Assembly (NCBI GenBank): GCA_028864975.1
Contig: JAGWLG010000004.1
Span: 64,001 to 128,000 of the forward strand
DNA length: 64,000 bases
DNA from: Thermoplasmata archaeon
GTDB lineage: Archaea; Thermoplasmatota; Thermoplasmata; Lutacidiplasmatales; UBA184
Direction: 5' to 3'
This document shows, piece after piece, positions 5,185 to 57,188 of the stretch (its first letter is position 1; the number at the start of each line of letters is the position of its first letter). The notes under the pieces were generated by a model. It was not told the DNA's origin. It did no database searches and worked only from the letters and a program-made list of their open reading frames with translations. Made by a program: the position numbers and the translations under genes.

Positions 5185-5856
5185 TTACCTGCTTCGCAGG
5201 ACCCATCGGTCGACCTCGATCCGTCCCCGGGCTTCCCGATGGTGGGGGAAGGTCGGGGGCAACGTCCAGGGGCTCCTTCGGTGGTCCTCGATGGTCAGAT
5301 GGCGAGCGATTGACCAGCGCTCTATAAAAGCTTGGGAGGCGGCGTTCGAGAGGAGGTAGACCGCTCCCCCGGAGGGGGAGATCGCCCCGGCCGCCGCCTC
5401 CAGGAAGGGGCGGTCCGCGTGCTTGCGCTGCGCCCCGAAGGGCGGGTTCATGACGACGGTATCGGCCAAAGGCACGGGCGGCTCCCTCGAGGTGGAGCCT
5501 AGTTCCCGCTGGACCCAGGCAATCTCGGCGTTCGCGCGGCGAGCGTTCTCCCGGGCCACCGAGAGTGCCTCGGGGTCCTGGTCCACTCCCGTCACGGACG
5601 CAGCCCCAAGGAGCGCCGCGCCGATCGCGAGGACCCCCGTGCCGCAGCCCAGATCGAGCACGCGTCGCCCCACGATATCGCCACGGACGAAGGCCTCCCA
5701 CAGGAGCTCGCTCGCGGCCTCCGCCGGTGTGACCACCTGCTCGGTTCGGGCATCAGGGTGGGGAAATCCCTCGAGCTGAGCGAGGGCACGGAGGAGCTCT
5801 GTCCTCTTTCGGAGGGGGGGCGGGGGGGCCGCCCGCTGGGGGGGAGGTTCCGTCAT
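5185..5856 (-). CDS. METTL5-family SAM-dependent RNA methyltransferase
   Basis: LEGFPHP...EQVVTP, VLDLGCGTG, MNPPFG motifs; typical archaeal neighbour of csl4. Confidence 0.88.
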   Translation of the reverse strand: MTEPPPQRAAPPPPLRKRTELLRALAQLEGFPHPDARTEQVVTPAEAASELLWEAFVRGDIVGRRVLDLGCGTGVLAIGAALLGAASVTGVDQDPEALSVARENARRANAEIAWVQRELGSTSREPPVPLADTVVMNPPFGAQRKHADRPFLEAAAGAISPSGGAVYLLSNAASQAFIERWSIARHLTIEDHRRSPWTLPPTFPHHREARGRIEVDRWVLRSR

Positions 5857-5972
5857 GCGGGGAGCCGGATTCGAACCGGCGAACGCCTGCGCGACGGAAT
5901 CTCTTCTCGAGGAGAGACGCGACCTCTCCCCGGTTTAAGTTCCGCGTCGTTTCCAAGCTTGACTATCCCCGC
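5856..5972 (-). tRNA. tRNA-Leu(TAA) with 33-nt intron at 37/38 (intron 5901..5933)
   Basis: Acceptor GCGGGGA/TCCCCGC+A; anticodon stem CGGAA/TTCCG with CT-TAA-A; long variable arm; T-arm GCCGG-TTCGAAT-CCGGC; intron folds CGGGGAGAG/CTCTCCTCG. Confidence 0.93.
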
Positions 5973-56968: not shown

Positions 56969-57070
56969 AGGCCCACCGAGCGGGACGGAACCCGGAAGGG
57001 AGGACGGGCCCCCGTCGCCCAGGCGAAGCCATCACCGTTATCTCGGGGACATCATCCGACCCCTGGGGCT

Positions 57071-57188
57071 GCCGAGGTGGCTCAGACCGGTACGGCGCGA
57101 GCCTGGAAAGCTCGTGGTGGATCTCCACCGCGGGAGTTCAAAGACCGACGGGGACTCCCCCCGTCGATGGAAAGTCTCCCCCTCGGCG
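57071..57188 (+). tRNA. tRNA-Ser(GGA) with 32-nt intron in the T-loop (59/60; intron 57143..57174)
   Basis: Acceptor GCCGAGG/CCTCGGC + G73; anticodon stem CGAGC/GCTCG with CT-GGA-AA; variable arm GGTGG/CCACC; T-stem GGGAG/CTCCC interrupted after TTCAAA by a hairpin insert. Confidence 0.92.

What the first reader, a model, noticed from the sequence alone, without database searches (positions are those of the whole stretch)
57071..57188. tRNA-Ser(GGA) interrupted by a non-canonical intron in the T-loop (59/60)
A complete serine cloverleaf has a 32-nt insert after T54-T-C-A-A-A59. The insert forms 3-nt bulges on both strands (AA|G and AG|T) around a 4-position central helix, above an 8-bp stem CGACGGGG/CCCCGTCG (seen). 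Non-37/38 introns, including T-loop ones, are characteristic of Thermoproteales and similar lineages with broad-specificity endonucleases. Euryarchaeal-type alpha2/alpha4 enzymes mostly act on strict BHB at 37/38 (established). One in a Thermoplasmatota-like genome is unexpected and easily missed by standard annotation. It may also block a viral integration site in the tRNA 3' half (inference).
Basis: partly seen in the sequence, partly recalled or inferred. Interest (0 to 1): 0.82.

Follow-up and report, generated by a model that had tools for sequence, protein, structure and literature searches.

The report
Serine tRNA with T-loop intron
This is a working serine tRNA gene interrupted by a 32-base intron in its T-loop; it is one of at least nine such genes in this soil archaeon, which has only the 'strict' type of splicing enzyme, so the intron is real but routine for its lineage.

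Summary
Confirmed. Window 57071-57188 (+) is a tRNA-Ser(GGA) gene with a 32-nt intron (57143-57174) between positions 59 and 60. Removing it gives a clean 87-nt class II tRNA. Intron-free orthologs in sister genomes have exactly the predicted junction.

The intron folds into a bulge-helix-bulge motif that uses the T-stem as its outer helix. It is kept in six genera of the family, with compensatory changes in 7 of 10 intron-helix pairs.

It is not a one-off. My own scan found nine tRNA genes in this genome with 59/60 introns, as earlier scan notes on this genome had reported for seven of them. A Ser-type T-arm with a 59/60 insert occurs in 90 of 401 sampled genomes of the class, in at least eight families.

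The genome is a soil Thermoplasmata MAG. Its family also holds published Ca. Lutacidiplasmatales MAGs. It has one EndA gene of the two-repeat (alpha'2) type, with no Crenarchaea-specific loop, plus RtcB.

Best reading: the T-arm mimics the anticodon arm, so a strict EndA can cut there without broad specificity. The kind of intron is known; the lineage and enzyme context appear unreported in the papers I could search. Interest is moderate.

The parts
57038..57043 (+). TATA-like box about 30 nt upstream of the tRNA. In most orthologs an A-rich BRE-like stretch precedes it.
   Evidence: A TTAT-containing box sits at the same distance in the upstream flank of most of the 30 intron-bearing orthologs, while the surrounding GC-rich flank is otherwise unconserved. 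It is a promoter by position and conservation only.
57071..57142 (+). Exon 1: tRNA-Ser(GGA) positions 1-59. It covers the acceptor 5' strand, D-arm, anticodon arm (anticodon at 57105-57107), long variable arm, T-stem 5' strand and T54-A59.
   Evidence: Rfam's tRNA model gives a partial 22-bit match at 57071-57132. Exon columns are nearly invariant in 29 orthologs.
57143..57174 (+). 32-nt BHB intron between tRNA positions 59 and 60.
   Evidence: Its removal restores the tRNA. Intron-free orthologs have the same junction. Intron sequence diverges while pairing is kept.
57175..57188 (+). Exon 2: positions 60-73. It covers T60, the T-stem 3' strand, the acceptor 3' strand and discriminator G73. 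CCA is not encoded.
57132..57136 (+). Outer helix h, 5' strand (T-stem 49-53). It pairs with 57176-57180.
   Evidence: Five pairs, invariant in 27 distinct orthologs (helix 5).
57137..57140 (+). Central helix H, 5' strand (T54-A57). It pairs with intron bases 57169-57172.
   Evidence: T54 and T55 pair with A or G and C56 pairs with G in 27 of 27 sequences. A57 faces G in 27 of 27 (helix 6).
57141..57143 (+). 5' bulge (A58, A59 | first intron base). The cut falls after the second bulge base.
   Evidence: These columns have no gaps in 29 orthologs.
57144..57168 (+). Inner helix h' with its 5-nt loop: 57144-57153 pairs with 57159-57168 in an A-T pair, a C.A mismatch and 8 bp.
   Evidence: 7 of 10 pairs change on both sides; 93.6% of cells are paired (helix 7).
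57173..57175 (+). 3' bulge (last two intron bases | T60). The cut falls after the second bulge base.

Best explanation
Window 57071-57188 is the functional, conserved tRNA-Ser(GGA) gene of this organism, and the only conserved decoder of UCY codons found in the genome. It is transcribed with a 32-nt intron between positions 59 and 60.

In the precursor, T54-A57 pair with the 3' end of the intron. The T-stem stacks below this helix and an intron hairpin stacks above it. This gives the archaeal helix-bulge-helix-bulge-helix motif: two 3-nt bulges four positions apart.

The T-arm has a 5-bp stem and a 7-nt loop, the same architecture as the anticodon arm. Position 59/60 is therefore the geometric equivalent of 37/38.

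The genome's single EndA is a two-repeat, alpha'2-type protein of 374 aa with catalytic Y311, H319 and K350. It lacks the Crenarchaea-specific loop. I infer that it cuts after the second base of each bulge and that RtcB joins the exons.

Shown here: the gene, the motif, its conservation and covariation, the exact junction, and the enzyme genes. Inferred: that this EndA does the cutting, and that the intron has no role beyond being spliceable.
For: - The spliced sequence is a clean class II tRNA-Ser(gga).
- Intron-free orthologs in genus g3 and in other families give the predicted junction.
- The intron is present in 29 aligned orthologs from six genera. Exons are near-invariant. The intron helix shows double changes in 7 of 10 pairs, 95.7% of cells are paired against at most 55% when partners are slid, and 0 of 500 shuffles reach the observed score.
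- A TATA-like box is conserved at about -30.
- Nine tRNA genes in the genome share the same 59/60 hBHBh' design.
- The canonical 37/38 introns of Leu(TAA) and Met(CAT) have the same central helix of three pairs plus A.G.
- EndA has two N-domains and two catalytic-type domains in one ORF. The catalytic triad aligns with M. jannaschii Y115/H125/K156, and there is a gap where A. pernix has its specific loop.
- 40 of 41 genomes of the class, with or without T-loop introns, have one such two-repeat gene.
- RtcB is present on the same contig.
- The literature says alpha4 and alpha'2 enzymes cut canonical BHB motifs, including those in rRNA and mRNA (PMC5829648, PMC4033280).
Against: - There is no RNA evidence: splicing is inferred.
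- One of the four central-helix positions is always A.G rather than a pair, so the motif is not textbook-perfect. No in vitro data exist for an alpha'2 enzyme on such a substrate.
- The minimum-free-energy fold of the precursor (-65.1 kcal/mol) is not the BHB cloverleaf (-51.3). For the isolated T-arm, the model forms the T-stem and the intron hairpin but leaves the central helix open. This is usual for BHB motifs, but it gives no support.
- The genome is 89.6% complete, so a second endonuclease subunit cannot be strictly excluded in G000. None was found in relatives up to 100% complete.
Confidence: 0.9

Rival explanations
1. The intron is real, but the lineage's EndA is not strict. It has gained a relaxed specificity by some change other than the known specific loops, or it uses a helper factor. 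That change is what allowed T-loop introns to spread.
For: 5 of the 9 T-loop introns have a purine-purine mismatch next to the 5' bulge. Sister families carry 11-15 nt inserts at 59/60 that can form only a bulge-helix-loop, a relaxed motif, and they too have only a two-repeat EndA.
Against: There is no insert at the site of the Crenarchaea-specific loop. The same one-gene, two-repeat architecture is found in families with no T-loop inserts. All nine introns here keep both 3-nt bulges and a 5-bp outer helix. Canonical introns have the same A.G.
Confidence: 0.12
2. The intron persists because it is useful: it breaks up the T-loop to 3' end segment that integrases of viruses and plasmids use as an attachment site.
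For: [quoted passage not shown] The bias to one site in the 3' half, with nine genes at 59/60, is compatible with it.
Against: Nothing here tests it. The bias to 59/60 is equally explained by geometry: only there does a tRNA stem-loop mimic the anticodon arm. Genus g3 lacks this intron yet keeps the gene. Only the intron's pairing is conserved.
Confidence: 0.15
3. The gene is a pseudogene or a tRNA-like remnant disabled by an insertion, and another gene supplies tRNA-Ser(GGA).
For: ARAGORN in intron mode reports a Ser(gga) on contig C83. Standard tools do not call the window's gene.
Against: The C83 gene has a perfect canonical BHB whose cuts give anticodon GAA, not GGA. The two registers that would give GGA have no motif. 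It has no ortholog in 60 relatives and lies in a patchy, repeat-rich region. The window's gene is conserved with covariation across the family.
Confidence: 0.02

Closest known systems
Non-canonical-position BHB introns at 59/60 in Thermoproteales and other TACK archaea (Sugahara et al. 2008, 2009; Marck and Grosjean 2003, as cited in PMC4033280 and PMC8450103)
   Same: Same site in the T-loop and same helix-bulge-helix-bulge-helix design. The cut falls after the second bulge base, and the intron is short and hairpin-shaped.
   Different: In those lineages introns are scattered over many positions and often have relaxed motifs. They go with heterotetrameric EndA that carries a specific loop. 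Here the non-canonical introns are almost all at 59/60 and keep both bulges, and the enzyme is a two-repeat alpha'2 type without that loop.
Canonical 37/38 tRNA introns of Euryarchaeota cut by alpha4 or alpha'2 EndA
   Same: Same motif geometry and the same enzyme class. In this genome the 37/38 introns of Leu(TAA) and Met even share the central helix of three pairs plus A.G.
   Different: The outer helix is the T-stem rather than the anticodon stem. T54-A57 are therefore locked in the motif, and the T-loop cannot form until splicing.
Korarchaeum cryptofilum and ARMAN-2 (alpha2 with specific loop; epsilon2)
   Same: They are archaea outside Crenarchaeota with non-canonical tRNA introns (PMC4033280, PMC3488258).
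   Different: Both enzymes carry an inserted specific loop with a key lysine, which is held to give broad specificity. No such insert is seen here.
Methanothermobacter thermautotrophicus and Methanopyrus kandleri multi-intron tRNAs
   Same: They are euryarchaeal precedents for introns away from 37/38 (PMC4033280). M. kandleri EndA also lacks the specific loop (PMC5829648).
   Different: Those are single genes per genome, not nine. M. kandleri EndA is a heterotetramer.

Membership tests
Archaeal BHB (hBHBh') tRNA intron | Two 3-nt bulges on opposite strands separated by a 4-position helix | tested here: met
   The bulges are at 57141-57143 and 57173-57175. The central helix is 57137-57140 with 57169-57172: three pairs plus an invariant A.G.
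Archaeal BHB (hBHBh') tRNA intron | Flanking helices on both sides (h and h') | tested here: met
   The 5-bp T-stem is invariant. The 10-position intron helix has double changes in 7 pairs.
Archaeal BHB (hBHBh') tRNA intron | Cuts after the second bulge base on each strand leave a functional mature tRNA | tested here: met
   ARAGORN calls tRNA-Ser(gga) on the spliced sequence. The junction is identical to that of intron-free orthologs.
Archaeal BHB (hBHBh') tRNA intron | Splicing endonuclease and RNA ligase encoded in the genome | tested here: met
   EndA is on C53. RtcB is at C104:51240-52547, 565 bits.
Archaeal BHB (hBHBh') tRNA intron | Spliced product observed | not testable with these tools
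   No RNA data are available.
Relaxed-motif intron (HBh', hBH, BHL) that needs a broad-specificity EndA | One bulge missing or disrupted | tested here: not met
   Both 3-nt bulges are present in this intron and in the other eight 59/60 introns of the genome.
Relaxed-motif intron (HBh', hBH, BHL) that needs a broad-specificity EndA | EndA with an inserted specific loop (CSL/L1 or ASL/L2) | tested here: not met
   Aligned with the A. pernix alpha subunit (3p1z_B), the query has a gap of about 10 residues where the loop lies. It aligns without a gap to M. jannaschii EndA.
alpha'2-type EndA | One polypeptide with two tandem EndA repeats, only the C-terminal one keeping the Tyr-His-Lys triad | tested here: met
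   Pfam finds two tRNA_int_endo_N and two tRNA_int_endo stretches in 374 aa. Y311, H319 and K350 align with the M. jannaschii triad. By my reading of the sequence, the N-terminal repeat lacks these residues. The best full-length PDB matches include A. fulgidus alpha'2.
alpha'2-type EndA | Homodimer in solution | not tested
   No complex prediction was run.

The most novel reading that the evidence does not exclude
A whole branch of soil and sediment Thermoplasmata, including the Ca. Lutacidiplasmatales family, has undergone its own expansion of tRNA introns, almost all at 59/60. It has done so with only an ordinary two-repeat EndA that lacks a specific loop.

This would show that intron position and motif relaxation are separable. 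A strict enzyme allows introns wherever a tRNA arm can mimic the anticodon arm. The accepted link between non-canonical introns and broad-specificity EndA would then need that qualification.

The 11-15 nt inserts in sister families look like tandem copies of the palindromic T-loop. They hint that such introns can arise de novo by local duplication.
Probability: 0.5. Interest if true: 0.6.

Novelty: new member of a known kind. Interest (0 to 1): 0.45.

Why it matters
Reviews state that alpha4 and alpha'2 endonucleases go with introns at 37/38, and that introns elsewhere co-evolved with enzymes that gained a specific loop (PMC4033280, PMC5829648).

This lineage has nine T-loop introns per genome, kept for a long time, with a plain alpha'2-type enzyme. 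It gives a natural test of whether position alone, without motif relaxation, needs any change in the enzyme. It also offers a simple rule for where a strict enzyme tolerates introns.

On the practical side, ARAGORN and Rfam miss or mis-call about a fifth of the tRNA genes in these genomes. tRNA complements and MAG quality checks based on those tools will therefore be wrong for this group.

Tried and rejected
- **Standard tRNA tools.** ARAGORN in default and in intron mode, and Rfam at gathering score, do not call the gene. Intron mode on this GC-rich genome gives many spurious calls with kilobase 'introns'.
- **Thermodynamic folding.** It does not recover the BHB cloverleaf. I treat this as uninformative.
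- **A second Ser(GGA) gene on C83.** Rejected. The only BHB there gives GAA, and the gene has no orthologs.
- **Contamination or another phylum as the source of the contig.** Rejected. Same-genus genomes have the same gene at 95-97% identity.
- **A specific-loop insert in EndA.** Not found.
- **A separate beta subunit or second EndA gene.** Not found in 40 genomes of the class.
- **Shared origin of the nine introns.** Only His with Ser(GGA) (z 3.7) and His with Asp (z 3.3) stand out among 36 pairs. This is suggestive, not shown.
- **C/D-box or other functional motif in the intron.** I saw none by eye, and only pairing is conserved.
- **Literature.** Searches for T-loop or non-canonical tRNA introns in Thermoplasmata or Thermoplasmatota found nothing. 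The Lutacidiplasmatales paper does not mention introns. The searched library holds open-access papers only.
- **Gain or loss in genus g3.** I did not build a species tree, so this is left open.

Full report
**Observation**

ARAGORN finds one tRNA in the window, and it is not this one. Rfam at gathering score finds none. At a loose threshold, Rfam's tRNA model matches only 57071-57132, at 22 bits against a cut-off of 29.

Deleting 57143-57174 (32 nt) makes ARAGORN call an 87-nt tRNA-Ser(gga). It has a 7-bp acceptor stem, a long variable arm, a TTCAAAT T-loop and G73.

The precursor can form:
- the T-stem (5 bp);
- a 3-nt bulge holding the 3' cut;
- a four-position helix between T54-A57 and the intron's 3' end (three pairs plus A.G);
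- a 3-nt bulge holding the 5' cut;
- an intron helix of A-T, C.A and 8 bp.

**Is it more than chance?**

A BHB-like arrangement alone is common. With my thresholds the genome has about 593,000 of them. The comparative data are what decide.

A BLAST of the 118 nt against 60 relatives found full-length matches, intron included, in genera g1, g2, g4, g5, g6 and g7 of the same family, at 75-97% identity. Genus g3 and other families matched only the first 72 nt. When fetched, those partial matches turned out to be intron-free Ser(GGA) genes whose T-loop and T-stem read exactly as the predicted spliced junction.

In an alignment of 29 intron-bearing orthologs, the exons are almost invariant while the intron varies (the one unpublished genome, G028, was left out). 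Counting pairs on the proposed structure gave:
- 95.7% of cells paired, against at most 55% when partners are slid;
- 7 of 10 intron-helix pairs changed on both sides;
- none of 500 shuffles reaching the observed covariation.

Kinship inflates the shuffle control, but the slid controls and the count of double changes do not depend on it. T54, T55 and C56 always pair with the intron. A57 always faces G (27 of 27). A TTAT-containing box about 30 nt upstream is shared by most orthologs in otherwise unconserved flanks.

**Whose genome**

The assembly is 3.61 Mb in 124 contigs, 67.4% G+C, 89.6% complete and 1.9% contaminated. Relatives of its EndA are named Thermoplasmata archaeon MAGs from soil, peat, permafrost and sediment.

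Two MAGs with names from the Ca. Lutacidiplasmatales study carry the same intron: AcS1-67 (listed in that paper's Table 1) and SubAcS10-22 (assigned by its name only). One of them is a member of the window's family in the genome panel.

**Not a one-off**

Earlier notes of this scan list 59/60 introns in seven other tRNA genes of this genome. I checked them independently. I scanned both strands for the 3-4-3 geometry, removed each candidate, and asked ARAGORN for a tRNA spanning the junction.

Nine genes came out with an intron of 28-41 nt at 59/60:

| tRNA | Note |
|---|---|
| Ser(GGA) | this finding |
| Ser(GCT) | |
| His(GTG) | |
| Asp(GTC) | |
| Asn(GTT) | |
| Ala(GGC) | |
| Arg(TCG) | |
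| Lys(TTT) | also has a D-loop intron |
| tRNA on contig C50 | identity unclear |

Each has a 5-bp T-stem as outer helix, both 3-nt bulges, three or four pairs in the central helix, and an inner helix of five or more pairs. That is roughly a fifth of about 50 tRNA genes.

A pattern for a Ser-type T-arm with a 10-40 nt insert at 59/60 matched 90 of 401 genomes sampled across the class:
- 55 of 59 in the window's family, all genera but g3;
- members of at least seven other families;
- none in four large families of 43-48 genomes each.

These tallies include three unpublished genomes (G028, G236, G323), and the conclusion does not depend on them. Genus g3, which lacks the Ser(GGA) intron, keeps the 59/60 intron of tRNA-Asp. 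Gain and loss therefore run gene by gene.

**The enzymes**

The genome has one EndA locus: an ORF of 374 aa with two tRNA_int_endo_N and two tRNA_int_endo stretches. Its C-terminal repeat aligns along its whole length with M. jannaschii EndA and keeps the catalytic Tyr, His and Lys (Y311, H319, K350).

Against the A. pernix catalytic subunit, the query has a gap of about ten residues exactly where the Crenarchaea-specific loop lies. That loop, or its ARMAN counterpart, is what the literature holds responsible for cutting relaxed motifs (PMC5829648; PMC4033280).

In 40 of 41 genomes of the class, whether or not they have T-loop inserts, there is one gene with two catalytic-type repeats about 540 nt apart. 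RtcB is present on the window's own contig, upstream of the window.

**How it most likely works**

The T-arm and the anticodon arm share one architecture: a 5-bp stem and a 7-nt loop. With the stem as outer helix, loop positions 1-4 as one strand of the central helix, and positions 5-6 plus the first intron base as the bulge, 59/60 in the T-arm corresponds to 37/38 in the anticodon arm.

The canonical introns of Leu(TAA) (window 5856-5972, minus strand) and Met(CAT) in this genome have the same central helix of three pairs plus A.G next to the 5' bulge. One enzyme with one rule can serve both sites.

Archaeal EndA is known to recognise the motif and not the mature tRNA body (established; PMC5829648). 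A strict alpha'2 enzyme should therefore cut here. This also explains why the non-canonical introns of this lineage pile up at one position instead of being scattered as in Thermoproteales.

What is shown: the gene, the motif, its conservation, the junction and the enzyme genes. What is inferred: cutting by this EndA, joining by RtcB, and the absence of any further role for the intron. Only its pairing is conserved.

**Rivals**

- **Pseudogene.** This is excluded for practical purposes. The only other Ser(gga) call, on C83, has a perfect canonical BHB that yields anticodon GAA. It has no motif for the registers that would yield GGA, no ortholog in 60 relatives, and a patchy repeat-rich setting.
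- **A quietly broadened enzyme.** This cannot be excluded. 5 of the 9 introns have a purine-purine mismatch in the central helix. Sister families carry 11-15 nt inserts that can form only a bulge-helix-loop.
- **The integration-blocking idea.** This remains untested.

**Known or new**

Introns at 59/60 with this motif are well known in Thermoproteales and other TACK archaea. tRNAscan-SE 2.0 searches for them by default (PMC8450103). The kind is therefore known.

I found no paper that reports them in Thermoplasmata, or that discusses a lineage with many non-37/38 introns and a plain alpha'2 EndA. The search covers open-access papers only.

I file it as a new member of a known kind. Interest is moderate: it qualifies the co-evolution story rather than overturning it.

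Noticed in passing
window 5856-5972 (-): This is a tRNA-Leu(TAA) with a 33-nt intron at the canonical 37/38 site. ARAGORN's default mode mis-calls it as a 90-nt tRNA-Arg(cct). Its central helix also has three pairs plus A.G, and its inner helix is weak next to the bulge.
   Followed up: partly
G000:C83:15780-15884 (+) (L129:181-285): This is a class II, Ser-type tRNA gene (long variable arm, G73) with a 19-nt intron. The intron's perfect canonical BHB (outer helix 5/5, central helix 4/4) would leave the anticodon loop with GAA and C at position 33, that is a Ser-bodied tRNA reading Phe codons. It has no ortholog in 60 relatives, and its flanks match relatives only in short repeated pieces. It could be carried by a mobile element, be a decaying copy, or be a recoding tRNA.
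   Followed up: partly
G040:C9:12095-12130; L040:116-215 (G038); several f24 and f22 genomes: Other families of the class have very short inserts (11-15 nt) at 59/60 of Ser tRNAs. Their 3' end repeats the palindromic T-loop, and in G040 the insert is an exact 9-nt tandem copy. The copy supplies the central helix, but the 5' cut site then lies in a loop (bulge-helix-loop). These genomes too have only a two-repeat EndA. This hints at de novo intron birth by local duplication.
   Followed up: no
G000:C50:11378-11490, C115:54061-54164, C83:15780-15884: Three tRNA genes appear to have C rather than T at position 33 of the anticodon loop, by my reading. The C50 gene also has an odd junction between its acceptor stem and D-stem. 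I did not check this against orthologs.
   Followed up: no
G000:C93:18372 (His), C104:121142 (Ser GGA), C119:61616 (Asp): The 59/60 introns of His, Ser(GGA) and Asp are more alike than shuffled controls (z 3.7 and 3.3 among 36 pairs). The His intron shares a run of about 15 nt with the same-genus Ser(GGA) introns. This hints at intron copying between T-arms.
   Followed up: partly
G000:C44:4196-4306 (-) and C38:9218-9360 (+): Two further non-canonical introns lie in D-arms. One is in a Pro(TGG)-like gene (35-39 nt, register unclear). The other is in Lys(TTT), which also has the 41-nt T-loop intron.
   Followed up: partly
G000:C104:51240-52547 (+), upstream of the window: The RtcB RNA ligase gene lies on the same contig, about 12 kb before the window starts.
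   Followed up: no
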